A stretch of DNA of 64,000 nucleotides from an uncultured Gammaproteobacteria bacterium (GTDB lineage Bacteria; Patescibacteriota; Microgenomatia; Levybacterales; GWA1-39-11), in assembly GCA_964448725.1 (NCBI GenBank), contig CAYVAJ010000004.1:17535-81534 (forward strand), written 5' to 3'. Positions 2,922-62,652 of the stretch are shown here, one piece after another (the first letter of the stretch is position 1; the number at the start of each line of letters is the position of its first letter). A model generated the notes under the pieces. That model did no database searches. It saw nothing but the letters and a program-made list of their open reading frames with translations, and had not been told where the DNA came from. Made by a program: the position numbers and the translations under genes.

Positions 2922-4361
2922 TTAACTACGACCATTAGTTAATTTCGGTTCCTCCTTCCAGTAAGGGTTTGCTTGTTCAAAGGTATGTGTTGTTCTATAG
3001 AGTGTTGCTTCATCAAAATGTTTACCGAGTATTTGCATACCGACCGGAAGTCCGTCTACAAATCCAGCAGGTACTGATATTCCTGGAACACCAACAAGAT
3101 TTGCATGTACAGTAAAAATGTCTGACAGATACATTTGTAATGGATCGCTTGTTTTCTCTCCTAATTTCCAAGGGAGAGAAGGAGATGATGGAGTAATCAA
3201 GACATCAACTTTTTCAAACGCTTCATCAAAATCATTTTTCAGAAGCGTTCGGACCTGCATTGCCTTTTTATAATACGCGTCATAGTATCCAGCAGAAAGG
3301 ACATATGTTCCAAGCATAATTCTTCGTTTGGCTTCTTCGCCAAAATCATTGCGTTCATTGCCATAGCGAATACCAGTATATCGTGCAAGATTTGATGATA
3401 CTTCTGCAGTTTGGATTACATAATACACTTCGATTGCATACTGGGTATGCGGAAGGGAAATATCAATTATCTCAGCTCCTTGAGATTCGTAAAATTTGAG
3501 CGCATCATGAATATGATCTTTAATACGAGAATCTAGTCCTTCAATAAAATATTCTTTCGGAACGCCGATTTTTAGTCCTTTTACTCCATTTCCAATATTT
3601 GCAGTATAATCTGGTACATCTTTTGATGGAGTTGTTGCATCCATTGTGTCTCTTCCTGCAGTAACGTTCAATACGAGCGCATTATCTTCAACTGTTTTTG
3701 TAAAGTGTCCAATAGAGTCAAGAGAGGATGCCATTGCAATCACTCCATAGCGACTGACACGTCCGTATGTTGGTTTCAGTCCGACAGTATTGGTAAAGCT
3801 TGCTGGGAGCCGAATAGATCCACCTGTATCAGTACCTGTTGCCATGAGACTCATACCGGCTGCAACAGATGCAGGAGATCCGCTTGATGATCCTCCAGGA
3901 ACGTACTCAGTATTATATGGATTTGCGGTTGCTCCAAAATCTGAGTTCTCTCCACTTGACCCATGTGCCCATGCATCAAGATTTGTTTTGCCTAAAATTA
4001 CTGCCCCTGCATCTTTTAATTTCTTGACAACTGTTCCATCGTATTGCGGGATATAGTGTTCAAGCACTTTTGATGCCGCAGTTGTCCGAATGTCTTTAGT
4101 AACAAACAAATCTTTTAATGCGACTGGAATCCCAAGCAGCGGCTTATCCTTGTCCAAGGTCCGACCTTGGTCAGCACGCAGCTTGTCTGCGGTCTCTGCT
4201 TGTTGTAGCGCTTCTTCTTCAGTTACGGTTAAAAATGCATTAATCTCGGTGTCATATTTTTCAATTTGACCAAGATATGCTTTTGTTAGCTCAACTGCAC
4301 TTATTTCTTTTGCCAGCAATTTCTTTTTTGCGCTAGCTATTGTTAAGTTTTTAGTGTCCAT
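2922..4361 (-). CDS. gatA: Glu-tRNA(Gln) amidotransferase subunit A (amidase signature family); carries an in-frame REP-like palindrome insertion
   Basis: 479 aa. Amidase signature GGSSSGS plus LLGIPVALKD motifs. The palindrome CCAAGGTCCGACCTTGG at 4154-4170 is translated in frame as QGRTLD. Confidence 0.9.
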   Translation of the reverse strand: MDTKNLTIASAKKKLLAKEISAVELTKAYLGQIEKYDTEINAFLTVTEEEALQQAETADKLRADQGRTLDKDKPLLGIPVALKDLFVTKDIRTTAASKVLEHYIPQYDGTVVKKLKDAGAVILGKTNLDAWAHGSSGENSDFGATANPYNTEYVPGGSSSGSPASVAAGMSLMATGTDTGGSIRLPASFTNTVGLKPTYGRVSRYGVIAMASSLDSIGHFTKTVEDNALVLNVTAGRDTMDATTPSKDVPDYTANIGNGVKGLKIGVPKEYFIEGLDSRIKDHIHDALKFYESQGAEIIDISLPHTQYAIEVYYVIQTAEVSSNLARYTGIRYGNERNDFGEEAKRRIMLGTYVLSAGYYDAYYKKAMQVRTLLKNDFDEAFEKVDVLITPSSPSLPWKLGEKTSDPLQMYLSDIFTVHANLVGVPGISVPAGFVDGLPVGMQILGKHFDEATLYRTTHTFEQANPYWKEEPKLTNGRS

Positions 4362-4367
4362 AGTTGT

Positions 4368-5957: not shown

Positions 5958-7340
5958 TTAAAGAATTTCCTTTCCGGTTAATATCTTTCGTAACTCAAGC
6001 ATGGCTGAGTATGTAGGGAGTATGAATGCAGTGTCTCCTTCAGGTGTCGCTTGTACTAACTCGTTAATTGCTTTTTTAGGATTCTCAAAAATTGTAACTG
6101 TAGAATTGTAATAATCCTTTTCTAGAGAATATTTCATTCGAACCGCCATGTCATATGCTCTGTCACCGGTAACAATGATTTTACCAGCGACATTTACTAA
6201 TTCTTCAAAGTCCACATCCCATATCCAAGATACATCTCGTCCATCAGGAATTCTATCATTCAAGGCAAGTAAAACAGTACAAGGTCGGACCTTGGTATTG
6301 TTTTGTGGTTGTACGGAATTTTTCAGGCTCGTACCAAGGTCCGACCTTGGTATAGTAGTCTCTGTAATAACACTGATTGATTGATTGAATCCAGCGGGGT
6401 TTTTTGAGAGGATCATAAAGAAATCACGATTTTTATAGGTGATTTTTTCTTGTCTTCCAAATGCCGAGGTAAATGACGCAAGTGATTTGCCAATCTCTTT
6501 ATATGAAATGTCAAATGCTTCTCGAGCTGTTTTTAATGCCGCTTGTAAATTGTACATATTATAAGTACCAGCAAGAACGACAGGGATAGATTCATCAATT
6601 TTATCTTTAATGTTTTCATTTGTAAATTTACAATTAGGGCAGGTATATTTTCCTAAATGGGAATATGCAATTTTTGAAAAAAGTAACTTGGTTCCGCATT
6701 GAGGACAATGAGTAGAGTCAGTATCATGGGTAGTTTCTTTTTTTGAAAAGTACTTGTTAGGAATAGAAAAATAAAATGTTTTACTCGTTGTGCTTTTTCT
6801 TAAATATCGTATCTCAGGATCATCTGCATTGAGTATAAGTTGTGTATCAGTTGTTAGCTTTTTCAGTGCTTTTTGCCAATTTCTAGCTATGGTATGTACT
6901 TCTCCATATCGGTCAAGCTGATCACGGAAAAGATTTAACAATACGATTGCGCGAGGAGTCATCTGAGATAATATGCGGGGAAGATTATTTTCGTCAACTT
7001 CAAAAATAGCCACATCATAGCGTAGTTTTCCTGTAACTGAAGCGTAGCGGATTAAGCTTGTTGCAAGTCCATTCACGAGATTTGCTCCTTCTTCGTTTTG
7101 AAAAACACGTAATCCATTTTTCTCTAAAATATGTCGTAAAATTTTAGCTGTTGTTGTTTTACCATTTGTTCCAGCAACAAGAATTATTGATAGATTTTTA
7201 CTGGATAAAAAATCCTGTATAAAGGTGGGATTTACTTGTAATGCAATATGTCCAGGCCAGGTAGAACCGGATCCAAGACCGAATTCTTTTATTACAGCAC
7301 TGGTGAATTTTCCGGCGAAAAATGAAAGTAATGTTTTCAT
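5958..7340 (-). CDS. murT: Mur ligase family protein MurT (lipid II isoglutaminyl synthase); contains two in-frame inverted REP-like palindromes
   Basis: 460 aa. P-loop VAGTNGKTTTAKIL, Cys4 ribbon CPQCGTKL...CPNC typical of MurT, and a C-terminal DUF1727-like region. Palindromes at 6279-6297 and 6332-6352 are translated as NTKVRPCT and IPRSDLGTS. Confidence 0.65.
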   Translation of the reverse strand: MKTLLSFFAGKFTSAVIKEFGLGSGSTWPGHIALQVNPTFIQDFLSSKNLSIILVAGTNGKTTTAKILRHILEKNGLRVFQNEEGANLVNGLATSLIRYASVTGKLRYDVAIFEVDENNLPRILSQMTPRAIVLLNLFRDQLDRYGEVHTIARNWQKALKKLTTDTQLILNADDPEIRYLRKSTTSKTFYFSIPNKYFSKKETTHDTDSTHCPQCGTKLLFSKIAYSHLGKYTCPNCKFTNENIKDKIDESIPVVLAGTYNMYNLQAALKTAREAFDISYKEIGKSLASFTSAFGRQEKITYKNRDFFMILSKNPAGFNQSISVITETTIPRSDLGTSLKNSVQPQNNTKVRPCTVLLALNDRIPDGRDVSWIWDVDFEELVNVAGKIIVTGDRAYDMAVRMKYSLEKDYYNSTVTIFENPKKAINELVQATPEGDTAFILPTYSAMLELRKILTGKEIL

Positions 7341-11104: not shown

Positions 11105-11181
11105 GGGGGTGTAGCTCAGTTGGTTAGAGCGCTTCCCTGTCACGGAAGAGGCCGCGGGTTCGAGTCCCGTCACTCCCGCCA
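11105..11181 (+). tRNA. tRNA-Asp (anticodon GTC), CCA encoded
   Basis: Manual cloverleaf: acceptor GGGGGTG/CACTCCC, D-arm GCTC-AGTTGGTTA-GAGC, anticodon arm CTTCC-CTGTCAC-GGAAG (GTC), T-arm GCGGG-TTCGAGT-CCCGT, discriminator G, CCA. Confidence 0.85.
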
Positions 11182-11400
11182 CGTCAAACGTGGCTTGCAA
11201 TAGAGCGAGTCGCGTATGACGCGAACGCACTTCGGCGCGTTACACTTGCTCAGTGCAAGTAACAAACCGAACAGGGAGAAAGTTAAGACGAGAAGTTTAT
11301 CCCGATAAACATCGGGAAGTCCCGTCACTCCCGCCACGTCAAATGTGGCTTGCAAATAAAGCGAGTTATGTCTGACGCGAATGTGTTTCGATGTGTTATT
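11163..11400 (+). repeat. Degenerate tandem duplication (about 155-bp period) beginning with the last 19 nt of tRNA-Asp
   Basis: AGTCCCGTCACTCCCGCCACGTCAAA(C/T)GTGGCTTGCAA... occurs at 11163 and again at 11318. Similarity continues for about 70-100 nt at roughly 75% identity. Confidence 0.6.
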
Positions 11401-12893: not shown

Positions 12894-15800
12894 ATGCACT
12901 CCCGCAAAAAAAAGTTTAAAGACTATTGGGAATTCGCTGAACTACAAGACAAAAAAGTCCGCATTGCTATTGCCATCTCTGCTTTAGGACTTTTGCTCTT
13001 TATCGCCTTCGCACTTACTTTTCCTTTTTATGATAATCTCTTTACTCGATTATTTCCGAAATCTCCTTCTCTTGCGGACGTAACAGCTCCAACAGTTGTA
13101 CAGTCAAATACTGCTACCGTTTCTTCTGGGAGTGATGTGTCTATTTCATGGGGGAGTCCAACATCAAATGGAAATTTCCTCATTGCAGTATTAGCAGCGC
13201 AGAGCGGAGATGAAGCATTATCGATATCTCAAGCGCCACAAGGATGGACATTAGTATCGGATACTATTAATGAGGAAGTAAGACAGTGGGTATATGCCTA
13301 TGCGAATGCTCCAGAACAGAGTGGAGAAGTAAAATTCACCCTCTCTTCAGGAGTAAAATCATCACTCGTGGTTGCAGAATATAAAGATGTTGCAAAAGAA
13401 AATGCTATAGAAACTCAGAATTCTTTAGTAGGAAATAATGATTCTCCCACTGGATCTGTTGATCCAAATACTGATTATAATTTAGTAATTGCAGCAGTAA
13501 GTTCGGTTGTAACAAGCAGTGAAAGCGCCAGTTTTAATAATGCTACTAATGACTTTTCTCTTGTAGGTCAAACATCAACAACAGGAGATGCTGTTAATAT
13601 CGCAACTGCATTGTTTAGTTCGTTTGTTGCCAATCAAGAACCTGTTAATAATTCCGTAACTATTGGATCAGGTACTCAATGGATACATACAATGGTAGCT
13701 ATAAAGCCTGTTGTACCTATCCCGACCTATACTCCTATTCCCAGTAAAGAACCAGAACCAACACCAGAGACAGAACCTGAGTTTTTACTTCAAGGATTAG
13801 ATCCTGAAAACACACAACAGAGTGGTCTGAGAAGTCTTGCGCTTGAGAGTACACAAATTTCGGGTACAACCTATTATGTAGATTGTCAAAACGGAAATGA
13901 TAGTAATAATGGAAGATCAGAGGGTGCTGCATGGAAATCATTAAATAAAATTAATAATGCCACATTAAATCCAGGAGATGGAATTCTATTAAAACGAGAT
14001 TGTTCATGGACTGGAACCTTGGATGCTGCGTGGAATGGTACTGCTCAAGAACCTATTACAATCGGTGCATATGGAGAAGGTGTGCTCCCTACGATTAAAT
14101 ATGACGGATCAAAAGGCGGTGGACCAGCTGTTAAAGTATCAGGATCATATGTCGTAATTGATAGTCTGAAAGCTACACTGACCAATCCCAATAGAAGTTC
14201 TGATTGTACATTAGCAGATGGGCAAAAACAGCATTTTGGTTATTATCAAGGCTTTAATTTATCTGGTCATCATCTTACCCTGCAAAACTCAGAGGCTACA
14301 GGCAATTCGTTGGGAGTTTTCACTACAGATTCCAGTCACCATAATAAAATACTGAACAACCATATCCATCATAACGATGGTTTATGGAGAATTGGCCCAA
14401 TTCCTCCAGGATCAATGGGTGGTATGGGTATGAATTTGCATGGCGATGATCATGAAGTTGCACATAATTTCTTTGAAAAAAATGATGCAAATTGTGATCC
14501 CCCAGACCATACGCATAGAGGGTATAGTGCAGCAATTGAGCTATATAATGCTAGTCGTGCGCACGTACATCATAATAAAATGGTAGGACATCGAAAGCAC
14601 TTTGAAATGGGTAAGAATAGCGATGAAATATCTGACGATAATATCTTTGCCTATAATTTAATTGTCAGTAATTTGGCAAATGCAAAAGGTCCTAATATTC
14701 ATGGCGCAGGAAATAAATTCGGTCCTGTTAAAAGGACAACAGTAGTCAATAATACTATATATCTTGTGGGTTCAGGGAATACTCAAGCACTCAATTGTGG
14801 GTGTACAGATGGCGCAACAATACGAAATAATATATTTTGGGCAGAAGAAAAAGTCGCATTTTTTAACGGTACATACACAGAATCTAATAATATTTACTGG
14901 GATAGTGATGGAAATCCAAATGCTCAAAATTTGAGTTTGCACGCTACTTCAAAAAAGACTAATCCGCAGTTTGTGAAGGCTGCTGTCAATGATGGTGACT
15001 TTCGTTTGAAAGCAGGGAGTCCTGCAATTGATGCCGGTATTTCAGTGGGATATGATTTAGACGTTGAAGGAGTATCTGTTCCACAAGGCTCAAAAGTTGA
15101 TATCGGTGCAATTGAATATACTGGTCAGGTTGTAACAACTCCAACCCCAACTGCAAGTACTGTTACCCCTACTCCAGGCGTTCAAGAACCATTCAGTGGT
15201 TCACGGATTTCGCTTCCAGGTACCATCCAAGCAGAAGATTTTGATAATGGCGGTGCTACTGTTGCATATGTTGATAATGATACAGGCAACAATGGGAATA
15301 TATATAGACAAACAGATGTTGATATTGAGGCTACGACTGACACTGGGGGAGGGTATAATCTTGGCTGGACTCGGCCAGGTGAGTGGGTAGAATATAGCGT
15401 TAATGTCTCATACTCAGGTTCTTACACGATAGGAACACGAGTAGCATCAAATGGAGGCGGCGGAGTATTTCATATAGAAGTTGATGGTACAGATGTAACT
15501 GGTCCAATGACCGTGCCAAATACAGGAGGTAATCAAATTTGGCAGACAGTTGAAAAAACAGGTGTACAGCTTACTGCAGGACAACATATTGTTCGTCTCT
15601 CATTTGATAATAATGGCGCAACTCAAGGTGTAGGCAATTTTAATTATATGACCTTTACTTTTGATCCTGGTCCTCAAACGCCGTACACAGGTACTCCTAT
15701 TTCTCTTCCAGGCATAATACAAGCTGAAGACTTTGATAATGGGGGTGTTATGGCTGCTTATTTTGATCAAGATGCAGGCAACAAGGGTAATGTGTATAGG

Positions 15801-18800
15801 GAAACAGATGTTGATATAGAAGCAACGACTGACACTGGTGGAGGGTATAACCTTGCTTGGATGTGGCCTAATGAATGGGTAGAGTATACAGTAAATGTAA
15901 CAGAAACAAGTACATATACCGTTGGAGCACGAGTCGCCTCCAATGGAGGTGGGGGAGTGTTTCATATAGAAGTTGATGGGCAAGATGTAACCGGTTCAAT
16001 GACTGTCCCGAGCACAGGAGGAAATCAGGTTTGGCAAACAGTTGAAAAAACCGGAATTCAATTAAGTGCTGGACAGCATATTATCCGATTGTCAATGGAT
16101 AGCAGTGGAGCACAGCAAGGAATTGCCAATTTTAATTATCTAGAATTTACTCAAGACACATCTACTAGTCCAGTACCATCCACCTCACAGGAATATACAT
16201 TATCCGGATCAGTATATGTCGATGTAAATAGAAATGGGGTAAAAGATACTGATGAATTAGGCCATAACGGAGCTGAGGTTACGGTATCAGGCGGATTATC
16301 AGCTAGTACCAATGCATCCGGGCTTTATACATTAACAGTTCCTGCTGCAGTATATACTGTTACTATTACCATACCTGATGGATATGAGGGAACAACTACA
16401 AATCCATTGTCTATTTCAGTCTCTGCAAATACTTCGGCGAACTTTGGTATTGCCCCAACAGCTACTGGAGGTAGAACAAATTCTGTCTTCACAGTGAATG
16501 CAGCTAAGACAGGTACTGAATTGAATGGACAACCTTTTCAAGTTGTTGGTATTCGTGTATCAAATGCACTTATTAATGACGCTAAAACACAACAACTCAT
16601 AGATAACCTTGATGTATTCAGAACTTATGGTATTAATACCGTTAGCGTTTTCTTCCAAGGTTCACGATTTGGTGACATCAAAGGCTATAGAGAAGATACA
16701 ACACTAAATCCTACCTACGCTGCTCGGATGGCACGAATTATTGAAGAAGCTGATAAACGTAAGATGGTCGTTCTAGTGGGAGTTTTGTATTATGGCGATG
16801 CAACCTTTGCAAAATGGGATAGTTGGGGACAAACTGAGGCAAACAGTGCAGTTGCTAATACTGTTCAGTGGCTCAAAGATAATAATTATCGCAATGTATT
16901 TATCGATGTTGATAACGAACAAATGTCACCGTTTGATAGTCAAAAACTCATTGCAGCTGGAAAAGCAGTTGATGCATCCTATGTAATTGGTTCTGGTGGC
17001 AAAATAACGCCATCAAATGCTGACCTATCTTTGCACCAAGGAGGCAAAAATATAACCGGTAAACCATATATTGAATCTGAAGGAACACCGCAAGGATATT
17101 GGGGTGCATATAGCAGACAGTCAGGAGACACACAATATCGAAATATTGGCATTTATACGAGTGATTTAAAATCTGCATGGTTGTCTGAAACTTCTAGTTT
17201 ATTGAATCAAGGAAAAGGATATATGGGTGCATCAACCTGGTTACAGGCCGACCTTCCAGAGGGACCAAATCACATACCTGGTGGAAATGGGACATCAGCA
17301 GATCCTGGGATTAAATTCTGGTTAGAGCATGTAAAGAGTTTGGTTGGGCCGTATGAGCCATCAGGTATTGGAGAGGAGACTACTCCAACCCCAACTCCAA
17401 GTGCTATTACCCCTACTCCTACTCAACCACCAACTGGGGGAACAGGGGCATTTTTGGAAAACAACGGTCAGCTAGTTATTGAGGTAGAGGATTATAATGA
17501 TATTTTTCCATCTACATTTAATAACTATACACAAACACACAATTGGGAAAAGAAAACAAATATTCCAGACTATAGTGGAAGCGGATTTATGCATAATATA
17601 CCAGATGAGCGAGGAGAGGATGGAGTAGGTCCTAATTCACCTCGAGGAAAAGGTGGACCTGAAATGCGGTATCCAATCAAGATATCAACTCCTGGAACAT
17701 ACAATGTCTGGGTAAGAGGGTATACTACGGGAGGAGAGTCAAACGGAGTACATATCGGGGTTGATGGGGTAATGACAGGTACAGAAGCTGGAGCTTCAAA
17801 TATGTCAGGGTTTAGACCTAAAGAATCGTGGATTTGGGAAAGTGCAAGAAAAGAAGGATATACGCTCCCTGCAACTCTCAATCTTACTGCTGGTTATCAT
17901 ACACTTAATGTCTGGGGAAGAGATGATGGATTTAGAATGGATAAAATAGTATTACGAATAGGAAGTGGTGTCCCATCAGGGACAGGACCTGCCCAGAGTG
18001 CGCGAGAAGCCATACCAACTCCAATAATTACACCAACTCCCACACCTGTGGTTACCACAACTCCCACACCTACTCCAAGTGTTCAAGCACCATTTACGGG
18101 AACTCCTATTTCGTTACCTGGAACAATCCAGGTAGAAGACTTTGATAATGGTGGTGCAAATGTTGCGTACTTTGATACGTCAGCAGGTAATAACGGTGGA
18201 GTATATCGAGATACAGATGTTGATCTTCAAGCTACTACTGATACTGGAGGAGGATATGGTCTTGAGTTTACAAGATCTGGAGAATGGTTAGAGTACACTG
18301 TAGATGTTGCTGAGGGCGGTACTTATGATATTGGTGTACGTGTTGCCTCTAAAGTAGTTGGTGGTGCATTCCATATAGAGATTGATGGGCAAGATGTAAC
18401 TGGGCCGATGTATGTACCAAATACTGGTGATTGGCAAACATGGACAACAATCGAGAAAACAGGTATACAGCTTACTGCAGGAGAACATGTAGTCAGATTA
18501 TCATTAGATAGCAGTGGTGAGCAGGCAGCTATTGGAAATATCAACTATATTACATTCACGAAAGTTGTCACAATTCCTACCTATACACTCTCAGGTACTG
18601 TATATGTAGATGCAAATAATAATGGTATACAAGATACAGATGAGGCTGATTATGCAAATGCAATTATTGAACTTTATGAAGGACCTGAAGCGACAGATAT
18701 TCCTTACCACACAGCAGAAACCAATACAGCCGGAGCGTATACTTTCAACACATTAAATCAAGGAGTATACACAGTATCACTTCTAATTCCTGATGGATAC

Positions 18801-21800
18801 AGTGTTACTACAGCTATCCGTCAAGTAGTCTCGCTTACAGCAGATACTATAGTGAATTTTGGTATCGCATCCACACAAACACCTACTATTACTCCTACTC
18901 CTGTAAGTCCTTCAAATCTTCTAAAGAATGGAGGTCTTGAGAGTAGCACTACTGTTTGGGGGTTATATGGGGGTGCAAGTATAATGCAAGGTACTTCACA
19001 TGGTGGTAGTAAAGCTATTCGTGTAGGTAATGCAAGTGGTGGGGGTGAATCAGGTGCCGAGCAAGCTGTTGCTGCACAGCCAGGAAAGACATACTCACTT
19101 ACTGCCTGGGGTATGATGAGTAATTCAGCTCAGAGTGATAAAGGCGCTGTGGGTATTAAATTTAAGAACAGTGCAGGAGATGTTCTTGGTAATGAAACAT
19201 CCATCTTTATTCCTGAGACTGATTGGACTCAGAAACAAGTGTCTGCAATTGCACCTGCTAACACGGCAAGCGTTGTAACTTATGTATATAAAGAAGTGGG
19301 AGATAATACTTTCTTATACATTGATGACTTTACGCTTACAGAAAGCGGAGAAGTTACTACTCCAACCCCAACATTGACAAATACTCCGACACCTACTGTT
19401 GCACAAAATACACCGACTCCAACGCCAGTACAACTATCTGATTTAGTAGTTAGTGATATAACATGGAGTCCATCTAATGCTACTGTAGGACAAAATGTTA
19501 CTTTTGGTGCTACCTTAAGAAATATTGGATCAGCTGCAACTCCTGATGCAACTGCCCATGGAGTAGCGTTTTATGTGAATGGAGTAAAAGTATCTTGGTC
19601 GATAAATCATAATGCGTCTATTGCACCAGGTGACTCAGTAACAGTCACTGCTAATGGTGGTCCTGAAGGTTCACGATTCTGGACAGCGACAGCAGGTACA
19701 CATGAAATTGAGGCAGTAGTTGATGAGCCTGGCAGGATTACGGAAAGTAATGAGGAAAATAATACTGCAAGCAACCAATTTACCATTGTTGCTGCTCCTA
19801 CGGTTACTCCGACTCCGACATCTGTTCCTACTTACACAGTAGATGGAACTGTATATGTAGATACAAATAAAAATGGTGTGCAAGATACAGATGAGGCAGG
19901 GTATGCAGATGCAGTTGTTATGATATCAACTAACCCTGAAACAGCAGGTATAAGCGATGAAAATGGGCGTTTTATTCTTACTGGAATAAATCAAGGAGTA
20001 TACACAGTTACTCTTTCCGCACCTAATGGGTATACTATCACGACTTCCAATCCAATTGAAGCAGTTGTAACTGCAAATACTACAATCAATTTTGGAATCG
20101 GTCTTATTCCAACTCCAACCCCTACAGCTCCTGTTATAACGCCTACATTAACAACAACTCCTACCCCTACTGCAACAGCTACTCCGATTCCAACTGTTAC
20201 TCCTCTTCCTACGGGTACTCAGTCAGTAACATACTCGGTCCCATGGACAAGTGAAGATGTACAAGAAACAAATACATCATTTACGGTAAATGACACCACT
20301 CTTCGAATTGGTGGATGCGGACAGACAGCTTGTTATACTGGTCTTCGGTTTACGAATATTAACCTGCCTAAAGGTTCTATAATTAATTCTGCATATGTAG
20401 AGTACAATGCAGCCCAAAGTAACTCACTTGCAAATGTAGCGGTAGAGATTGCAGGACATGATTCGGATAATAGTTCGCTTTTCTCTTCATCCAATAAACC
20501 TTCACAAAGAACACTTACAGCTGCTAAAGTGACTCCTCAAACTGATACAGTAGTTGCTGCTAATCAGTGGTATCGTTTAGGTAATATCTCATCAATAGTG
20601 CAAGAAGTCATAGATAGAGACAATTGGCAAACTGGAAATAGTATTTCACTTATTATTCGTGCTACATCTCCAACAGAGCAAGATACAGGAATTCTTGCAC
20701 ATAGTTACGATGGAAATTCTGAGAGAGCACCACGCTTAGTAATTATATATAGTAGTCCGATAGGCGGAGAAGAACCAACAAATACTCCTGTCCCTATTAC
20801 AGAGCCTACTGAAGCACCTATTCCAACGTATATTCTTTCAGGTACTGTCTATGTAGATACCAATAAAAACGGCGTAAAAGATATAGAAGAATCAGGTCAA
20901 AGTAATATAACAGTATCTCTGTCAAATGGAGCATCGGTTTCAACTGATGCACAAGGTAGATATCAATTTACTGATTTAATCCAAGAACTCTATACTGTAA
21001 CTGCAACAGTACCAAATGGATATACATTGACTACTCAGTCATCAATCCCTGTATCACTTATAGCTGATACAAGTGTACACTTTGGAATGGTACAAGTACC
21101 AATAGCCACGGTAACTGCAACATCTGCACCAACCCCTACCCCTATTCCATGTTCACTTGTATCAGCCAAATGGCAAACAACCAATAATCAAATAGATGAA
21201 GGTGAGATTGTAGGACTTGAAGTTATAACCTCAGGAAACTGTGTTGGAGAAGAGCTGGAGTTTGAGGTACGAGAGGACGATGGAATTATGGGGTCTGATG
21301 CAACAAATATTATTCCAGCAACAGTACCAATAATCGGAAATAACGCACAGACTTCATGGATAGTTGAATGGCAGCAGGATTGTATGGGATTTGCACTTTG
21401 CCAAACTCCGGAATATTACTATATTGTTAGAATTGTGGGAACCACAACTGAGATACGCTCAACAAATCCAACACTTAAAGTGCAGCGTACCAACAAAGCA
21501 CGGTTTGTGACTATTCCTCATGTGGATGTGACTCAAGATACTGTGAAAATTACATGGAAGACAAGCCATGATATGTCATCACAGATTAGCTATGGATTAT
21601 CTGCAGAATCCCTTGTAAGTACAGATGAGATAAATACCAATATACGAGCAGCTGATCATGCTATTACAATTGACAACTTACTTCCTTGTACTGCGTATCG
21701 GTATCAGGTACGTTCACGGGAAATAACTGGTGATATGGTAGAGAGCCCTTTTGCTCAATTTATAACAAAAGGTTGTGAAGGAAACTCGTCAGTACTTGCA

Positions 21801-27967: not shown

Positions 27968-29650
27968 GTGCCCACACAACAGTCTAAATTGAAACGTACA
28001 AAATATATATTTGTTTCAGGTGGTGTTATCTCAGGAATAGGGAAAGGAATCACCGCCGCATCCATCGCCCTTCTTCTTAAGCAAGCAGGTTATCATATAG
28101 CCCCCATAAAATTTGAAAATTATCTCAATCTTGACGCTGGTACTATTAATCCTATAGAACATGGTGATCCATTTTTGTGCGAAGACGGCACAGAGACAGA
28201 TATGGATATTGGAACGTATGAAAAATTCCTTGATGAGAACATGGGGAAAAATAATTTCGTGACCATGGGCAAGATTTATCACACTGTAATTGAGCGGGAA
28301 AGACGGTTTGAATACAACGGTGAAGACGTAGAAGCAATTCCTCATATTACTGATGAGATTATCAACAGAATAAAAACAGTAGGCAATAAAAAAAATGTTG
28401 ATATTGTTATCGTAGAACTTGGCGGAACAGCTGGAGAATATCAAAATGTGTTCTATTATGAAGCATCTCGAATACTGGCATTAAAATATCCCGGTGATGT
28501 AGTCCATATTCATGTGAGTTATGTGCCAACTCCTGGTCATCTTGGGGAACCAAAAACAAAACCAACACAACTGTCTGTGAGAACGCTCAATTCTATGGGA
28601 ATACAGCCAGATTTAATTGTCGCGCGTTCTGACCGTATGCTCGATAAACGCCGCCGTGACCGTTTTGCATTATTTTGCAATATGCATTCCGAAGACATAA
28701 TTTCAGCTCCCGATGTTGATTCTGTATACCGAGTACCATTTGTATTACATGAACAAGGGGTAGAAAAAAGAGTATTGGAAAAGCTGGGACTACCGATTAA
28801 AAAACCAGATCTTAGAAAATTTGAGAAATTACTTGCAAAAATTGAAAAATCAAAAGATAAGACGATTGAAGTAGCAATTGTTGGCAAATATTTCGGAACT
28901 GGAGAATACCAACTGAAAGATTCCTATGCTGCATTATTTGACGCAATTGATCATGCAGGATGGGAAATAGGGGTAACTGTCAAGACACGGTGGGTAAATG
29001 CAGAAAAAGTAGAGGCTAATGGTCCTGAAAAAGAAATTGGTACACCTGATGGGATCATAGTACCAATTGGATGGGGAGAACGAGGGTCTGAGGGAATGAT
29101 TGCTGCAGCTAGTTATGCACGAACTGCAAAAATTCCATACCTTGGTCTGTGTTTTGGTATGCAGTTAGCAGTAGTTGCGTTCGCACGCGATTTAATGAAA
29201 TTTAGGAAAGCTAACAGCGAAGAAATTGATCCAAAAACAAAGTATCCAGTAATTCATTTTATCTCAAATCAGAAAGAATTAATTGCGCAGCGGGCATATG
29301 GCGGGACAATGCGGCTTGGAGGCTGGGATGCAAAAGTGAAGCCAGGAACCCGCGCTCATGAGATATATACTAAATATAATGCTATGGATAACAAAGCAAA
29401 AAGCATTGCAAGCGAACGGCATAGGCATCGGTATGAATTTAATAATATTTATTCAGATGATTTTGAAAAAGCAGGTCTTGTGATTAGCGGACGATCAGTA
29501 AAAGAGAATTTAGTCGAGATTATAGAACTTCCTGAATCAGAACACCCTTTTTATATGGGAACCCAAGGTCACCCTGAGTATAAGAGTAGACCAGGTAAAC
29601 CACACCCTTTCTTTATCGAATTCCTCAAAGCAGCAGAAAAACAAAGATAG
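27968..29650 (+). CDS. pyrG: CTP synthase
   Basis: 560 aa. YIFVSGGVISGIGKGITAASIA at the N-terminus and a C-terminal glutamine amidotransferase with GLCFGMQ. Confidence 0.9.
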   Translation: MPTQQSKLKRTKYIFVSGGVISGIGKGITAASIALLLKQAGYHIAPIKFENYLNLDAGTINPIEHGDPFLCEDGTETDMDIGTYEKFLDENMGKNNFVTMGKIYHTVIERERRFEYNGEDVEAIPHITDEIINRIKTVGNKKNVDIVIVELGGTAGEYQNVFYYEASRILALKYPGDVVHIHVSYVPTPGHLGEPKTKPTQLSVRTLNSMGIQPDLIVARSDRMLDKRRRDRFALFCNMHSEDIISAPDVDSVYRVPFVLHEQGVEKRVLEKLGLPIKKPDLRKFEKLLAKIEKSKDKTIEVAIVGKYFGTGEYQLKDSYAALFDAIDHAGWEIGVTVKTRWVNAEKVEANGPEKEIGTPDGIIVPIGWGERGSEGMIAAASYARTAKIPYLGLCFGMQLAVVAFARDLMKFRKANSEEIDPKTKYPVIHFISNQKELIAQRAYGGTMRLGGWDAKVKPGTRAHEIYTKYNAMDNKAKSIASERHRHRYEFNNIYSDDFEKAGLVISGRSVKENLVEIIELPESEHPFYMGTQGHPEYKSRPGKPHPFFIEFLKAAEKQR

Positions 29651-30059
29651 AAGATATTTATTACTTATTATTTATTATTTAAACCTAAAAAGATTTTTTA
29701 TTATACGTAATACTTAGTTATTTATTATTTATTACTTATTATTGATTATTTATTATTGATGTTTAGTTTTTAAGCCTATTCGATATATGTTATTTAATAT
29801 TTTACCGTGAACTACGAACAGTGAACCGTGAACGCTATTTATTACTTATTATTGATAATCAATACTAACTCCCTAACTCCATATACTTTATAACTTTATG
29901 AACTTTACAAACTTTATAACTAAAACGACTTTATGAACTTTACAAACCTTAAGAACTTTACAAACCCTAATCCCTAGACTCTAACCCTATACCTTACGTC
30001 TTATACCCATCTCATCTCATTCTTGCAAACTACGCATGTTTCACGTATAATTACCTCTT
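29651..30059. repeat. AT-rich intergenic region with short tandem/dispersed motifs (ATTACTTATTATTGAT x2, GTGAAC x4, GAACTTTACAAAC x3)
   Basis: Direct reading. Exact 16-mers at 29731 and 29841. GTGAACTACGAACAGTGAACCGTGAAC at 29806-29834. AACTTTATGAACTTTACAAAC repeats at 29905-29975. Confidence 0.6.
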
Positions 30060-36903: not shown

Positions 36904-37000
36904 TTCTCATTGATGCACAGGTTAAAGCATACAAATTAGGGAGAGGAAAAAATAGAGTAATAAAAGAGTGAGAATAAATAATTATAAGAAAAAATTCCAA

Positions 37001-37127
37001 GAAAAAAGCACCTTGGGGTAATAGAGAATAGATAACCCAAGTGACTTTTTTCTGCTGCTTATGCAGCGAAGCTCCATAGGCGTATCTTCCTCTTCACATC
37101 AAACGTGTTTGACCTTACGGTGCTTTA
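37001..37127. repeat. Copy 1 of a two-copy ~120-nt structured element (candidate small ncRNA / MITE-like repeat)
   Basis: Shares with 41185-41301 the outer helix AAGCACC...GGTGCTT, the internal hairpin GCTGC-TTAT-GCAGC (CCTGC-TCAT-GCAGG in copy 2, compensatory), the first hairpin CTTGGG.../...CCCAAG, and the conserved CCATAGGC and CCTTACGGTGCTT boxes. A U-run follows the hairpin on both strands. Confidence 0.5.
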
Positions 37128-41079: not shown

Positions 41080-41184
41080 ACAATCCTCCTTTTAGCGTAC
41101 GAACGACAATAGAAAGAATTATACTATGATAAAAAAAGAAAGTCCATACTATAAGTTTATTATTTAACAATTAAATTAACTCAC

Positions 41185-41301
41185 GAAAAAAGCACCTTGG
41201 GGTATATGAGAGGATATATCCTAAGTCACTTTTTTCGTCCTGCTCATGCAGGAGTAGTGCCATAGGCAAATTTTTCTCTATTGTTACCTTACGGTGCTTA
41301 T
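41185..41301. repeat. Copy 2 of the two-copy ~120-nt structured element (candidate ncRNA / MITE-like repeat)
   Basis: See copy 1. The same box order is present with compensatory changes in two helices. Confidence 0.5.
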
Positions 41302-41863: not shown

Positions 41864-41921
41864 ACAAACGCTACTAATGGAGGATTATATCAGATTGTAT
41901 TCTATATGAAACAATAAATTA

Positions 41922-41958
41922 CACCTTCCAGGTGGTTTAGGTTCACACCTCTTCTTTA
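41922..41958 (-). promoter_or_regulatory. Shared 37-nt upstream motif containing the palindrome CACCTGGAAGGTG (copy 1, upstream of 41312..41863)
   Basis: CACCTTCCAGGTGGTTTAGGTTCACACCTCTTCTTTA is identical to 45646-45682. It lies just upstream of a -35/-10-like region of the downstream minus-strand gene. Confidence 0.45.
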
Positions 41959-45609: not shown

Positions 45610-45645
45610 AGTTCTAGTATATCAGAACAAAAGGGTTAATTATTC

Positions 45646-45682
45646 CACCTTCCAGGTGGTTTAGGTTCACACCTCTTCTTTA
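45646..45682 (-). promoter_or_regulatory. Shared 37-nt upstream motif (copy 2, upstream of 44461..45609)
   Basis: Identical 37-mer to 41922-41958. Confidence 0.45.
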
Positions 45683-45722: not shown

Positions 45723-45795
45723 TGAGCCGACTGGGACTCGAACCCAGAACCAAAAGCTTAAAAGGCTTTTGCTCTACCGATTGAGCTATCGGCCC
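45723..45795 (-). tRNA. tRNA-Lys (anticodon TTT), no encoded CCA
   Basis: Manual cloverleaf on the reverse strand: acceptor GGGCCGA/TCGGCTC, D-arm GCTC-AATCGGTA-GAGC, anticodon arm AAAGC-CTTTTAA-GCTTT (TTT), T-arm CTGGG-TTCGAGT-CCCAG, discriminator A. Confidence 0.8.
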
Positions 45796-54077: not shown

Positions 54078-54258
54078 ATCGCACCTATAGTAGGATATTG
54101 ATTACTTATTATTGATTATTGGATATTTTAAATTACTCTTACACCTTATGCCCTAAACCTAAAAACCTAATCTATAGTCCCCAATCAATAATCTACAATC
54201 AATAGAATATAATCTCCAGGGCTTGATTTTTTGTTATCAATTTGACCATACTAACAGT

Positions 54259-59134: not shown

Positions 59135-59329
59135 AGGTATGAATAGTTGCTACTTATAATTTATTACGTATTATTTATTATTGATGATCTATAATTAAAT
59201 TATTAAAATCATCTATGTAAAAAATATACGAAATATCCTCGAATTATTCAATATGACATACTATAACAAAGTATAGAAGAATCCCAAAATATGCAAAAAT
59301 TATCACTCTGTATGGTAGAATGATAGACG

Positions 59330-61309: not shown

Positions 61310-61323
61310 CCTTCATCCTCCAG

Positions 61324-61344
61324 ACCAAGGTCCGACCTTGGTCA
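61324..61344. repeat. REP-like perfect palindrome GACCAAGGTC-C-GACCTTGGTC (3' flank of the RAYT gene)
   Basis: Direct reading. The same palindrome family occurs at 62058-62077, 4154-4170, 6279-6297 and 6332-6352, with a degenerate copy at 61641-61655. Confidence 0.7.
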
Positions 61345-62010
61345 AGAATCTTCAAGTAGTAGTGGTCCGAGTATTTCTTCAGAGTTTTGATTAAAATCAT
61401 CTACAAATTTTTTATACTCATTCTGTGGAACAGCTTCAGAGTTTCCAGCAAAGTACTGGAGAATATCATCAGGATTTAGCCATGATGCACGCTTTAGTCC
61501 TAAAAAATTTGCATAGCTTGTGTATTTTGTGAAATCGATTTCAGAGTGTATATATGTTGGATTTAAATGAATATACCGAGTTAAATGAAGAAGATATTGA
61601 TCTGAGTCTATAATGCATGCTTTATATTTATTCTGAAACAAAGGTCCGACCCTGTCATATTTTTTATTAAAATACATTACGTATGCGGTCATCAATCGTC
61701 GCATAAGTTTTGTGATTCCGTTTGCTGTGATTTGTTTTACCAATAGGTGTATATGATTTGGCATTAAACAAAATGAAACAAGTACAACTTCTTCAGAAAG
61801 ATTAGATAAAAGAAATCTTAATTTGCGTTTAGGATTAACATTTATGTCTTGAATGAGGTCAAGTTTTGGTTGTAAATAAAGTTTTAAGTAAAAAAGAAAG
61901 ACAGCACAATCAGATTCATCAAGAAAAATAGTTCGCTTTTCAATCCCACGGTTATAAATATGGTAATAAGAATTCTCAAGATATGTTTTTACTACATTCC
62001 GAGCAGGCAT
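61342..62010 (-). mobile_element. HUH Y1 transposase, IS200/IS605 TnpA-like / REP-associated tyrosine transposase (RAYT)
   Basis: 222 aa. YHIYNRG... and HuH motif PNHIHLLV with a downstream catalytic Tyr region (QNKY). REP-like palindromes lie immediately at both ends of the gene. Confidence 0.7.
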
Positions 62011-62057
62011 ATTCTTGTTTCATTATGCTCCTTTTTACCATATAAATGTCAATATTG

Positions 62058-62077
62058 GACAAGGTCCGACCTTGGTC
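62058..62077. repeat. REP-like palindrome GACAAGGTCCGACCTTGGTC (5' flank of the RAYT gene)
   Basis: Direct reading. Followed by GGTCAAG as at the 61324 copy. Confidence 0.7.
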
Positions 62078-62157
62078 AAGTTGGAGTGAGGCGGTGGGTA
62101 GGGAGGTGATGTGCCGGGAAGGGGTTGCCTTCCCGGATTGGTGCTGTTTAATCGTTC

Positions 62158-62652
62158 CTAATTTCCTGAAATTAGGTCTTCAAGCAGTACACTTGACTGT
62201 AGGAGAGATTGTGCAATCTCTCCGTCAAGTTCTTTGTTCAGATCACTCAGGAGAGTGATAAACATTCGGTGTTCTTGATCCGGTATTGTCAATGTCCATT
62301 TATGATCATCTCCTCTTCTATGTGAGTAACACAACTCATACTCACCCACTTTTTGAGTGGTATAGTGCCAATAAGCACTGATTGTGATCTCTGGATAACG
62401 AATAGTTGATCCAAGAATACGAAGCTGTTCTTCAGCTCCAGCAAATGGGAAGACCCAGGTGTAATCGTGCATATGCTCTTGCCAATGATTTCCGGGAAAT
62501 CGTACGATATCCTCGTTGATCATCCGGAACTTTCTATATGCATCCCAAGCCCTCAGTGATGTGAGCATAGCTATTTCTTCTGGTGTCAAGACAATAGGCA
62601 GCTTTAGACACGCAGAGATCGCTTCCATGCGCACAATGATGGGATTTGGCAT
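62158..62652 (-). CDS. Hypothetical protein (GC-richer segment adjacent to RAYT)
   Basis: 164-aa ORF. A perfect hairpin CCGGGAAGG-GGTTG-CCTTCCCGG sits at 62120-62142 just downstream. Confidence 0.35.
   Translation of the reverse strand: MPNPIIVRMEAISACLKLPIVLTPEEIAMLTSLRAWDAYRKFRMINEDIVRFPGNHWQEHMHDYTWVFPFAGAEEQLRILGSTIRYPEITISAYWHYTTQKVGEYELCYSHRRGDDHKWTLTIPDQEHRMFITLLSDLNKELDGEIAQSLLQSSVLLEDLISGN

What the first reader, a model, noticed from the sequence alone, without database searches (positions are those of the whole stretch)
4154..4170. REP-like palindrome inserted in frame in gatA
CCAAGGTCCGACCTTGG sits within the GatA frame. It is translated on the minus strand as D-Q-G-R-T-L-D, in a region of the N-terminal segment that is usually variable. 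Together with the murT copies, this suggests the REP family tolerates, or targets, coding sequence.
Basis: seen in the sequence. Interest (0 to 1): 0.55.

Follow-up and report, generated by a model that had tools for sequence, protein, structure and literature searches.

The report
Translated REP hairpin inside gatA
A 17-base palindrome inside an essential tRNA-amidotransferase gene of a Candidatus Levybacteria genome is a real copy of a short hairpin repeat that flanks a single RAYT-like tyrosine transposase gene, and in these tiny, gene-dense genomes most copies of the repeat lie in frame inside genes and are presumably translated.

Summary
CCAAGGTCCGACCTTGG sits at 4154-4170 inside gatA (2922-4361, minus strand) and reads D-Q-G-R-T-L-D. 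Five good copies occur in the window, against 0.01 expected by chance. Two are in murT. Two flank a Y1 (HUH) transposase gene at 61342-62010, whose predicted fold best matches the E. coli RAYT-REP complex.

QGRTL is extra sequence: 110 of the 120 closest GatA homologues, and solved GatA structures, lack it. The murT pair sits in a roughly 20-residue insert that 104 of 121 MurT sequences lack.

The element is a hairpin: stem (CC)AAGGT/ACCTT(GG) with a variable 3-nt loop. The exact 17-mer recurs across many Patescibacteria (CPR) lineages, usually as inverted doublets and next to diverged RAYT homologues. Of these copies, 64% lie deep inside long ORFs, in all three frames, often at the same loops of TopA, UvrC, GatA and MurT.

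Orthologous intragenic doublets are far better conserved than the coding DNA around them (p = 2e-8).

The best explanation is a REP/REPIN-RAYT-type system whose copies survive in permissive protein loops. Mobilisation by the RAYT is inferred, not shown. This is a new variant of a known kind, and I found no description of it for CPR.

The parts
4154..4170 (.). REP-type hairpin core, a singlet, inside gatA. It encodes Q65-G66-R67-T68-L69 plus one base of each flanking Asp codon. The extended imperfect palindrome is 4152-4172.
   Evidence: As single-stranded DNA it folds as a 7-bp stem with a 3-nt loop, -6.5 kcal/mol. It is 22/24 identical to the copy upstream of the RAYT gene.
2922..4361 (-). 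gatA (Glu-tRNA(Gln) amidotransferase subunit A), the host gene. The invariant K83 and the S158 and S182 motifs are intact.
6279..6295 (.). REP copy in murT (16/17, central G on the + strand), read as T-K-V-R-P-C. It is one arm of an inverted doublet.
6334..6350 (.). REP copy in murT (17/17, central C on the + strand), read as P-R-S-D-L-G. It is the second arm of the doublet, 55 nt start to start.
   Evidence: The two arms can pair as one long hairpin, -19.6 kcal/mol, z -6.4.
5958..7340 (-). murT (lipid II isoglutaminyl synthase subunit). It carries a roughly 20-residue insert that holds the doublet.
   Evidence: The Pfam MurT_C match spans 137 residues for a 110-position profile. 104 of 121 MurT sequences lack the insert. 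The close relative L135 lacks it.
61323..61343 (.). Perfect 21-nt palindrome between uvrB and the RAYT-like gene. It overlaps the RAYT stop codon by 2 nt.
   Evidence: Hairpin -9.1 kcal/mol, z -5.5.
61342..62010 (-). RAYT-like Y1 (HUH) tyrosine transposase gene, one copy in the window.
   Evidence: Pfam Y1_Tnp E 5.6e-11. Invariant HUH motif (H86, H88) and Y146. Model pLDDT 90, best fold hit 4ER8. No second copy in the window. The uvrA-RAYT-uvrB order is conserved.
62059..62075 (.). REP copy (16/17) 48 nt upstream of the RAYT start codon.
61639..61655 (.). Weak 3-mismatch resemblance inside the RAYT gene, at the codons for R-V-G-P-L. Probably not a family member.
   Evidence: Other RAYT genes encode the same motif with unrelated codons.

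Best explanation
The palindrome in gatA is one copy of a short hairpin repeat of the REP/REPIN type. The repeat has a stem (CC)AAGGT/ACCTT(GG) and a 3-nt loop, CCG or CGG in this genome. Its partner is the single RAYT-like Y1 HUH transposase gene at 61342-62010, which is itself flanked by two copies.

The proposed mechanism follows the IS200/IS605 and E. coli RAYT enzymes. The transposase recognises the folded hairpin on single-stranded DNA, then cuts and rejoins it. In this way hairpins, singly or as inverted doublets, are copied to new sites and can be removed without a scar.

These Patescibacteria genomes are about 85% long ORF, so many new copies land in genes. A copy survives only if three conditions are met:
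- it adds a multiple of three bases;
- it carries no stop codon (the CCG/CGG variant is open in all six frames, giving PRSDLG, QG[R/P]TL or KV[R/G]PW);
- it lands in a loop that tolerates extra residues.

The gatA copy is such a survivor. It makes the loop five residues longer, 14 residues before the catalytic Lys83, and is presumably translated.

Shown here: the repeat family, its hairpin, its association with the transposase, the transposase fold and motifs, the insert status in GatA and MurT, and the intragenic prevalence. Inferred: that the RAYT mobilises the hairpins, the single-strand mechanism, and that the extra residues are near-neutral.
For: - **Repeat family.** Five copies in the window against 0.01 expected.
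- **Transposase association.** Copies sit 48 nt upstream of and directly after the Y1_Tnp gene. The same arrangement, 14-60 nt upstream and 0-10 nt downstream, occurs around homologues of 26-47% identity in other CPR genomes.
- **Transposase fold and motifs.** The best fold match is 4ER8, the RAYT-REP complex, followed by IS608 and ISDra2 TnpA. The HUH motif and the Tyr are invariant.
- **Vertical inheritance.** The gene order uvrA-RAYT-uvrB is shared with a Daviesbacteria relative.
- **Hairpin anatomy.** The hairpins flanking RAYT genes keep the stem while the loop triplet varies, as CCG/CGG, TGA/TCA, GCC/GGC and TTA/TAA. Inverted doublets predominate.
- **Insert status.** 110 of 120 GatA homologues lack the loop extension. 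Solved GatA structures align with gaps there. 104 of 121 MurT sequences lack the insert.
- **Intragenic prevalence.** 89 of 139 copies lie in ORFs of at least 150 codons.
- **Selection on the peptide.** The frames are uneven: QGxTL 39, PRSDLG 35, KVxPW 15, p = 0.004. This is what a filter on the encoded peptide would produce.
- **Gain and loss.** The murT insert is present in the window and in L120 but cleanly absent in L135. L135 groups with L120 in the GatA tree.
Against: - No biochemical or population evidence shows that this RAYT moves these hairpins.
- No empty and filled pair close enough to define the inserted unit or the target was found.
- The protein misses the curated NCBIfam RAYT cutoff (36 bits against 80). 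The hairpin lacks the GTAG or CGTC tag of classical REPs.
- The gatA loop extension is shared, at the same length, by relatives of 80-83% identity that no longer carry the palindrome. A perfect 17-mer in this lineage therefore needs maintenance, re-insertion or selection, which a purely neutral-survivor model does not supply.
- Orthologous intragenic doublets are conserved at nucleotide level far above the flanking coding DNA.
- Translation of the segment is presumed, not observed.
Confidence: 0.72

Rival explanations
1. The hairpin is chiefly a host-selected DNA or RNA signal rather than a selfish or neutral passenger. It could be a binding site, an mRNA structure affecting stability or translation rate, or a replication or repair cue. 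On this view it is kept inside genes by nucleotide-level purifying selection, and the RAYT serves as its maintenance enzyme. This rival overlaps with the best explanation. It differs on why the copies persist.
For: - The identical 17-mer is found across many CPR classes, while the adjacent RAYTs have diverged to 26-47% identity with the window RAYT and 39-67% among themselves.
- Orthologous doublets in TopA and GatA of different species are 61/66 identical outside the ascertained 17-mer, against 371/614 for the flanks, p = 2e-8.
- An exact or near-exact copy sits at the same loop inside six or more diverged RAYT genes.
- The gatA and murT copies are intact here but decayed in L120, whose RAYT is flanked by a different loop variant.
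Against: - Copy number is low: 5 in 64 kb, and 12 to 21 or more exact copies in the two richest MAGs found.
- Most GatA and MurT orthologues do without it.
- Copies visibly decay by synonymous changes where the peptide is kept (L123).
- No Rfam family matches and there is no terminator-like context.
- Recent parallel insertion or gene conversion could mimic the observed conservation.
Confidence: 0.3
2. The Y1 gene and its flanking hairpins form an ordinary autonomous IS200/IS605-type insertion sequence. The solo palindromes would then be its miniature derivatives (PATE or MITE-like), spread recently by horizontal transfer.
For: The protein matches Pfam Y1_Tnp, and IS608 and ISDra2 TnpA are next after 4ER8 in the fold search. 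It falls below the curated RAYT cutoff.
Against: - There is a single copy in the window, with no tnpB.
- Both flanks carry the same palindrome rather than distinct left and right ends.
- The gene sits between uvrA and uvrB in both Levybacteria and Daviesbacteria at 56% identity, which points to vertical descent.
- Only 4 hits appear in 2.9 million viral contigs.
Confidence: 0.08
3. QGRTL is a protein-level feature of GatA, and the palindrome is a by-product of codon choice.
For: In L123 and L124 the peptide QGRTL is kept while the DNA has drifted by synonymous changes.
Against: - 110 of 120 homologues lack the segment.
- The same DNA appears in all three frames in unrelated proteins and in intergenic DNA.
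- The exact 17-mer recurs five times in the window.
Confidence: 0.02
4. It is a DNA uptake sequence for natural competence.
For: The motif is lineage-wide, occurs in coding regions in several frames and often forms inverted pairs.
Against: Density is about 1 per 13-45 kb. Known uptake sequences occur at roughly 1 per kb (my own knowledge). The tight association with a Y1 transposase gene is not expected for an uptake signal.
Confidence: 0.03

Closest known systems
REP/REPIN-RAYT systems of Enterobacteria and Pseudomonas (Nunvar 2010; Bertels and Rainey 2011, PMC3116915; Ton-Hoang and Messing 2012, PDB 4ER8)
   Same: - A short palindromic repeat that forms a hairpin.
- Inverted doublets.
- A single Y1 HUH transposase gene flanked by the repeat.
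- The gene keeps the same position between species.
- The predicted fold is closest to 4ER8.
   Different: - REPINs are described as about 100 bp, present in hundreds of copies and 'almost exclusively in extragenic space' (10.1101/2021.07.10.451892). Here doublets are about 36-45 nt, copies number in the tens, and 64% are intragenic.
- There is no GTAG or CGTC tag.
- The protein falls below the NCBIfam RAYT cutoff.
- The same 17-mer is shared across class-level lineages.
Intragenic REPs reported by Di Nocera et al. 2013 (PMC3733652) in Opitutus terrae, Thauera, Xanthomonas and others
   Same: REP units and dimers inserted in frame in housekeeping genes, adding roughly 20-30 residues. Replication and repair genes are over-represented. 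Some sites are shared between species, for example recB in Xanthomonas.
   Different: In those genomes intragenic copies are a minority of a mainly intergenic family. The repeats are GTAG- or CGTC-tagged, and the hosts are not CPR.
Rickettsia palindromic elements (RPE; Ogata et al. 2000; cited in PMC3733652 and PMC3184786)
   Same: Palindromic repeats inserted in frame in conserved protein genes, translated, and tolerated at the protein surface.
   Different: By my own knowledge, RPEs are about 100-150 bp and add 30-50 residues, have no known cognate transposase, and are confined to Rickettsia.
IS200/IS605 insertion sequences and their miniature derivatives
   Same: Y1 HUH enzyme, hairpin recognition on single-stranded DNA, and seamless excision. 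The mechanism proposed here is borrowed from these elements.
   Different: Those elements are multi-copy and autonomous, have distinct left and right ends, and often carry tnpB. None of these features is seen here.

Membership tests
REP/REPIN-RAYT system | Short palindromic repeat present in many more copies than chance | tested here: met
   Five good copies in 64 kb against 0.01 expected. At least 21 and at least 12 exact copies in two CPR MAGs.
REP/REPIN-RAYT system | Y1 HUH transposase gene flanked by the repeat | tested here: met
   Copies 48 nt upstream and 0 nt downstream of 61342-62010. The same layout is seen in most of the ten other loci that carry a homologue.
REP/REPIN-RAYT system | RAYT fold and catalytic HUH and Tyr motifs | tested here: met
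   Model pLDDT 90. Best PDB match 4ER8, E 1.4e-5. H86, H88 and Y146 are invariant.
REP/REPIN-RAYT system | Curated sequence membership (NCBIfam NF047646, REP_Tyr_transpos) | tested here: not met
   36 and 42 bits against a cutoff of 80. A profile search of PDB sequences found nothing.
REP/REPIN-RAYT system | RAYT is single-copy and vertically inherited | tested here: inconclusive
   One copy in the window. The uvrA-RAYT-uvrB order is shared with Daviesbacteria. The position differs in L125 and L127. A whole-genome copy number could not be obtained.
REP/REPIN-RAYT system | Repeats arranged as inverted doublets (REPINs) | tested here: met
   Neighbours lie 18-28 nt apart, nearly always with opposite loop orientation. 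The window murT pair is inverted. The gatA copy itself is a singlet.
REP/REPIN-RAYT system | Predominantly extragenic location | tested here: not met
   89 of 139 copies lie inside ORFs of at least 150 codons. Three of the five window copies are intragenic.
REP/REPIN-RAYT system | Conserved GTAG or CGTC tetranucleotide at one end (Di Nocera superfamilies) | tested here: not met
   The flanks show only a weak T-rich 5' and A-rich 3' extension. Window flanks are (G/T)AC and GT(C/A).
REP/REPIN-RAYT system | RAYT binds and cleaves the single-stranded repeat | not testable with these tools
   Needs biochemistry.
In-frame palindromic inserts of the RPE or intragenic-REP kind | Repeat lies in frame in a conserved gene and is absent from most orthologues | tested here: met
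   GatA 110/120 and MurT 104/121 lack it. Solved GatA structures align with gaps there.
In-frame palindromic inserts of the RPE or intragenic-REP kind | The insert is translated and the host protein remains functional | not testable with these tools
   Only indirect evidence: the ORF is intact, catalytic residues are conserved and the Pfam match is full length.
IS200/IS605 insertion sequence | Multi-copy autonomous element with distinct left and right ends, often with tnpB | tested here: not met
   Single copy, the same palindrome on both sides, no tnpB nearby.
DNA uptake sequence | Very high genomic density (about 1 per kb) | tested here: not met
   Five per 64 kb here. About 1 per 44 kb in the richest MAG seen.

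The most novel reading that the evidence does not exclude
A single hairpin, AAGGT-N3-ACCTT, together with its RAYT-like enzyme, is an ancient, vertically inherited system of the whole Candidate Phyla Radiation. Its copies live mainly inside essential genes, and inside the RAYT gene itself. They are kept at fixed codon positions by nucleotide-level selection or by enzyme-dependent maintenance. This would be a translated, domesticated REPIN-like population with a host function, not merely tolerated junk.
Probability: 0.3. Interest if true: 0.8.

Novelty: new variant of a known kind. Interest (0 to 1): 0.62.

Why it matters
REPINs are held to survive in bacteria only because they stay out of genes. 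Here a related system persists in some of the smallest and most gene-dense bacterial genomes by living in frame inside essential genes. These include gatA, murT, topA, uvrC, aminoacyl-tRNA synthetase genes and its own transposase gene.

If the nucleotide-level conservation is real, it gives a tractable case for asking whether such repeats are parasites, tolerated passengers or host tools. It also bears on practical work with CPR proteins. Short 'lineage-specific inserts' such as PRSDLG, QGRTL and KVGPW are repeat-derived and should not be read as functional motifs. They can mislead alignments, phylogenies and structure prediction.

Tried and rejected
- **Rfam.** The gathering-threshold scan of the whole window and the permissive scan of 61200-62300 found nothing at any copy.
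- **Terminator or promoter role.** No terminator-like tail follows the copy at 61323-61343. A -35/-10-like pair brackets the copy upstream of the RAYT gene, but such matches are no more frequent than in shuffles.
- **Sequence searches of the PDB with the RAYT.** Both the single sequence and the profile found nothing useful. Only the fold search worked.
- **AlphaFold model of GatA.** Mean pLDDT was 69. It places residues 65-69 at the end of helix 48-70, before strand 79-82, but is too weak to say the segment is surface-exposed.
- **Weak copy at 61639-61655 inside the RAYT gene.** It encodes the conserved R-V-G-P-L motif. Other RAYT genes use unrelated codons for this motif, so I treat it as coincidence.
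- **Viral contigs.** Four hits, which I take to be about chance level, so there is no sign of phage carriage.
- **Literature.** Searches for RAYT, REP or palindromes in CPR, and for the DNA and peptide strings themselves, found no description of this element.
- **Defining the inserted unit and target from a filled and empty pair.** The nearest relative (96%) also carries the gatA copy. The next relatives (80-83%) have a loop of the same length with unrelated sequence. The boundaries therefore remain undefined.
- **Genome-wide count in this organism.** Not possible. Only the window plus 8 kb beyond it (L129) could be read.
Full report
**1. The observation**

The 17-mer CCAAGGTCCGACCTTGG is at 4154-4170 exactly as reported. 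It is a perfect palindrome around a central C.

Allowing up to three mismatches, the window holds six sites against 0.01 expected from shuffles. Five are good copies:
- 4154 (17/17);
- 6279 (16/17, central G);
- 6334 (17/17);
- 61325 (17/17);
- 62059 (16/17).

The sixth, at 61639, is a weak 3-mismatch hit. The palindrome can extend to 21 nt, GACCAAGGTC-S-GACCTTGGTC. It is perfect at 61323-61343 and has one mismatch at 4152-4172. An independent repeat search recovers the same five copies as one family. The gatA copy is 22/24 identical to the copy at 62055-62078.

**2. Coding context in gatA**

The site lies in the minus-strand ORF 2922-4361 (479 codons). This ORF is GatA:
- Pfam Amidase, E 4e-144, full length;
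- gatC and gatB are neighbours;
- the best solved relatives are GatA 4WJ3 (E 5e-147) and 3H0L.

The sense strand reads GCT GAC CAA GGT CGG ACC TTG GAC AAG, which is A63-D-Q-G-R-T-L-D70-K. This is 14 residues before the invariant K83 of the PVALKD strand. By homology to S. aureus GatA Lys79, K83 is the catalytic lysine (established knowledge of amidase-signature enzymes).

Among the 120 closest homologues, all Candidatus Levybacteria or Patescibacteria, 110 have a short loop of the form ..AD-G-ES-TPLLGIP. The query loop is five residues longer. HMMER alignments to solved GatA structures place a 5-residue gap (4WJ3) and a 10-residue gap (3H0L) at or spanning QGRTL.

**3. The partner gene**

Two of the five copies bracket the ORF 61342-62010 (minus strand, 222 aa). 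One lies 48 nt upstream of the start. The other abuts the stop codon. The evidence that this gene is RAYT-like is:
- it matches Pfam Y1_Tnp (IS200-like), E 5.6e-11;
- it has an invariant HUH motif (N85-H86-x-H88) and an invariant Y146-x-H-x-N motif across 39 homologues;
- its AlphaFold model is confident (pLDDT 90);
- the best match among solved structures is 4ER8, the E. coli REP-associated tyrosine transposase bound to a REP hairpin (E 1.4e-5), followed by IS608 and ISDra2 TnpA.

By sequence it is only a distant relative of curated RAYTs. NCBIfam REP_Tyr_transpos scores 36 bits against a cutoff of 80. Sequence and profile searches of the PDB find nothing.

It is the only copy in the window. 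In this genome (L129) and in a Daviesbacteria relative at 56% identity (L126) it sits between uvrA and uvrB. That is what is described for vertically inherited RAYTs (PMC5581495; 10.1101/2021.07.10.451892). Two other relatives have it elsewhere.

**4. Anatomy of the repeat**

As single-stranded DNA the copies fold into a 7- to 9-bp stem with a 3-nt loop. Energies are -9.1 kcal/mol at 61321-61346 and -6.5 in gatA.

Hairpins flanking RAYT genes in related Microgenomates keep the stem AAGGT/ACCTT but differ in the loop triplet:

| Locus | Loop triplet |
|---|---|
| This window | CCG/CGG |
| L125 | TGA/TCA |
| L127 | GCC/GGC and TTC |
| L122 | TTA/TAA |
| L130 | GGA/TCC |

The unit is therefore a conserved stem with a variable loop.

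In the frame CAA GGT NNN ACC TTG the loop is exactly one codon. The CCG/CGG variant has no stop codon in any of the six frames. It gives PRSDLG, QG[P/R]TL or KV[R/G]PW, as read directly from the sequence.

**5. Distribution outside this genome**

- about 95 are named Patescibacteria or CPR lineages of many classes (Saccharibacteria, Kaiser-, Lloyd-, Nomura-, Yonath-, Vogel-, Taga- and Yanofskybacteria, and Paceibacterota);
- 10 are unnamed 'bacterium' MAGs;
- 14 are non-CPR.

My own estimate of chance hits for the whole 596-Gb collection is about 70, so the non-CPR hits are unremarkable. One Saccharibacteria MAG has at least 21 exact copies in about 0.93 Mb, and one Paceibacterota MAG has at least 12.

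No sequence beyond about 3 nt on either side is conserved. Ten of the 119 8-kb stretches contain a homologue of the window's RAYT at 28-43% identity. In nine of them a palindrome lies directly beside or inside that gene. Viral contigs give only four hits.

With the looser core AAGGT-N3-ACCTT, copies mostly occur as pairs 18-28 nt apart. The pairs nearly always have opposite loop orientation, CCG next to CGG. These are inverted doublets of the REPIN kind, only much shorter.

**6. Copies inside genes are the rule, not the exception**

In those loci 85% of bases lie in stop-to-stop ORFs of at least 150 codons. Of the palindromes, 64% (89 of 139) lie in such ORFs, often hundreds of codons from either end. 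They are thus about three-fold depleted in genes, yet most are intragenic.

All three frames and both orientations occur, but unevenly: QGxTL 39, PRSDLG 35 and KVxPW 15 (p = 0.004). This fits a filter on the encoded peptide.

Host genes include topA, uvrC, a second loop of gatA, a P-type ATPase, carB and several aminoacyl-tRNA synthetase genes. I assigned these by recognising motifs in the translations, not by a database search.

The same loop is used in different genomes, sometimes in a different frame or copy number. For example, in UvrC the segment before RIEAYDIS is PRSDLG in one genome and QGPTLgtPKVGPW in another.

**7. The same loops of GatA and MurT are used repeatedly**

On a neighbour-joining tree of 121 GatA sequences, repeat-type loops occur in at least three or four separate places:
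- the query and P0001 (96% identity, exact palindrome, L122);
- P0039 and P0077 (two decayed copies, CAAGGaCGGACCTTa GAT CAAGGTCCGtCCTTa);
- P0076 (a GGA/TCC doublet);
- P0063 (an exact CGG and CCG doublet 39 nt apart).

These are documented.

In MurT, 104 of 121 sequences have 38-41 residues between SKNPAGFNQ and DVSW, while the query has 61. Its insert holds the inverted pair 6279 and 6334, read as PRSDLG and KVRPC. The pair can also fold as one long hairpin, -19.6 kcal/mol.

Other lineages carry inserts in the same loop:
- L128 has a doublet there with different spacing and frame (LRSDLD...QGRTL);
- P0247, P0244 and P0254 have related or decayed versions;
- five sequences carry a different inverted repeat, HPRG...TPRGC.

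This loop therefore seems to be a general sink for small hairpin inserts. That argues for selection of permissive sites. It does not exclude site preference.

**8. Persistence and decay**

The five-residue extension of the GatA loop is shared by the clade {query, P0001, P0002, P0003}. The palindrome is intact only in the first two. P0002 (L120) reads CAA GAC GAA TCT CTC CAC, and P0003 (L135) reads AAG AAT CCG GAG CTT TAT.

The murT insert is present and intact in the window. It is present but unrecognisable in L120, and cleanly absent in L135.

L120's genome has a RAYT flanked by the TGA/TCA loop variant. It has no CCG/CGG copy in the 42 kb read.

Three pairs of orthologous intragenic doublets from different species were compared: TopA twice and GatA's second loop. 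Outside the 17-mer used to find them they are 61/66 identical, while the coding DNA on either side is 371/614 identical (p = 2e-8).

Diverged RAYT genes at 39-67% identity to one another carry an exact or near-exact copy at the same internal loop.

Together these results say that copies are either maintained at nucleotide level where the matching system is active and decay where it is not, or that they turn over by repeated loss and gain at the same places. I cannot separate these two readings with the data available.

**9. Most likely mechanism**

I commit to a REP/REPIN-RAYT-type system.

Shown:
- a hairpin repeat family;
- its tight, repeated association with a RAYT-like Y1 enzyme that keeps its catalytic motifs;
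- inverted doublets;
- insert status in two essential genes;
- prevalence in ORFs, with a frame bias.

Inferred from the IS200/IS605 and E. coli RAYT literature (PMC3733652; structures):
- the enzyme recognises the folded hairpin on single-stranded DNA, cuts beside it and rejoins;
- this allows copying to new sites and scar-free removal.

Scar-free removal would explain the clean absence in L135 and the patchy distribution. In a genome that is 85% ORF, the copies that remain are those that add 3n bases, carry no stop codon and fall in tolerant loops. The gatA copy is one of them.

**10. Rivals**

- **A host-selected DNA or RNA signal.** This is the serious rival and is partly compatible with the above. 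The nucleotide-level conservation favours it. The low copy number, absence from most orthologues and visible decay argue against a general requirement.
- **An ordinary autonomous IS with miniature derivatives.** Disfavoured by single copy, identical flanks, conserved synteny and absence from viral contigs.
- **A protein-level motif.** Contradicted.
- **An uptake sequence.** Contradicted by density and by the transposase association.
- **Chance or assembly artefact.** Excluded by the statistics and by independent assemblies of the same allele (L122 and L129 from different runs, and the NCBI record).

**11. Comparison with what is known**

Intragenic REPs are not new. Di Nocera et al. (PMC3733652) list REP units and dimers inside genes of several species, notably replication and repair genes. 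Rickettsia RPEs are the classic in-frame case (PMC3184786).

What differs here:
- the host group (CPR), for which I found no report;
- the very small size of the unit;
- the lack of a GTAG or CGTC tag;
- the fact that most copies are intragenic, whereas REPINs are described as almost exclusively extragenic;
- the sharing of one exact 17-mer across class-level lineages whose RAYTs have diverged to 26-47% identity;
- a copy inside the RAYT gene itself.

I therefore rate it a new variant of a known kind.

**12. Limits**

- I could not count the repeat over the whole source genome.
- I could not find a close filled and empty pair.
- I could not show translation or enzyme activity.
- The GatA structure model was too weak to locate the segment on the surface.
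- The set of 119 loci was ascertained by the exact 17-mer. It says nothing about how many CPR genomes lack the element, and it biases conservation estimates. I allowed for this by excluding the ascertained 17-mer.

Noticed in passing
L011 (codon 57), L054 (55), L118 (59), L037 (54), L051 (74), L025 (83), L071 (112 and 120) of the RAYT-like ORFs: Diverged RAYT-like genes (39-67% identical to each other) carry an exact or 1-mismatch copy of the palindrome inside their own coding sequence. In four of them (L011, L054, L118, L037) it aligns to the same loop before the HUH motif and reads QG[R/P]TL. The window's RAYT lacks it. This could be an autoregulatory site or simply another permissive loop.
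   Followed up: partly
MurT homologues P0262, P0286, P0311, P0321, P0328 (same loop as window 6270-6356): A different inverted-repeat insert, read as HPRG...TPRGC, occupies the same MurT loop in other Levybacteria. P0261 has yet another insert there (PELVSGS). Several hairpin repeat families seem to share this site.
   Followed up: no
L122:412-488 versus window 4362-4367: The 96%-identical relative has a 76-nt intergenic spacer upstream of gatA that holds three hairpins of the TTA/TAA loop variant. The window has only 6 nt there and no copy of that variant anywhere. This is a presence/absence difference between close relatives.
   Followed up: partly
window 62051-62079 (minus strand): The copy upstream of the RAYT gene lies exactly in the spacer between a -35-like TTGACC and a -10-like AATATT. 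Promoter-like matches in the region are no more frequent than in shuffles, so this is only a hint of autoregulation.
   Followed up: partly
window 62078-62157: A G+C-rich stretch between the upstream REP copy and the next gene contains a separate inverted repeat, CCGGGAAGG...CCTTCCCGG. No Rfam match.
   Followed up: partly
window 11163-11200 and 11318-11355: A 38-nt direct repeat (97% identical). Its first copy overlaps the 3' end of the tRNA gene at 11105-11178, which resembles the attachment-site duplication left by an integrating element.
   Followed up: no
window 36998-37052 and 41182-41236; 41918-41958 and 45642-45682: Two further two-copy repeats. One is a 55-nt pair containing AAAAAAGCACCTTGGGG...TTTTTTC. 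The other is a 41-nt pair, 98% identical, with its second copy about 40 nt before the tRNA gene at 45723-45795.
   Followed up: no
window 29648-29860, 54096-54138, 59144-59200: An A+T-rich repeat (TATTTATTACTTATTATTGATTAT, partly with 14-nt periodicity) recurs at three places.
   Followed up: no
window about 15100-21100: Large internally repeated DNA: 300-nt, 95-nt and 58-nt units, plus runs of ACN/CCN triplets that would encode Thr/Pro-rich linkers. This suggests a big repetitive surface protein gene. G+C is slightly raised here (0.41).
   Followed up: no
RAYT homologue P0188 (alignment A2, columns 150-184): One Microgenomates RAYT homologue has a unique 35-residue insert (MNPSPLLAAGYPASGTSSYRTIHPRSRAARYSGS) after the conserved LFQN..K motif. 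It is possibly another repeat-derived insertion.
   Followed up: no
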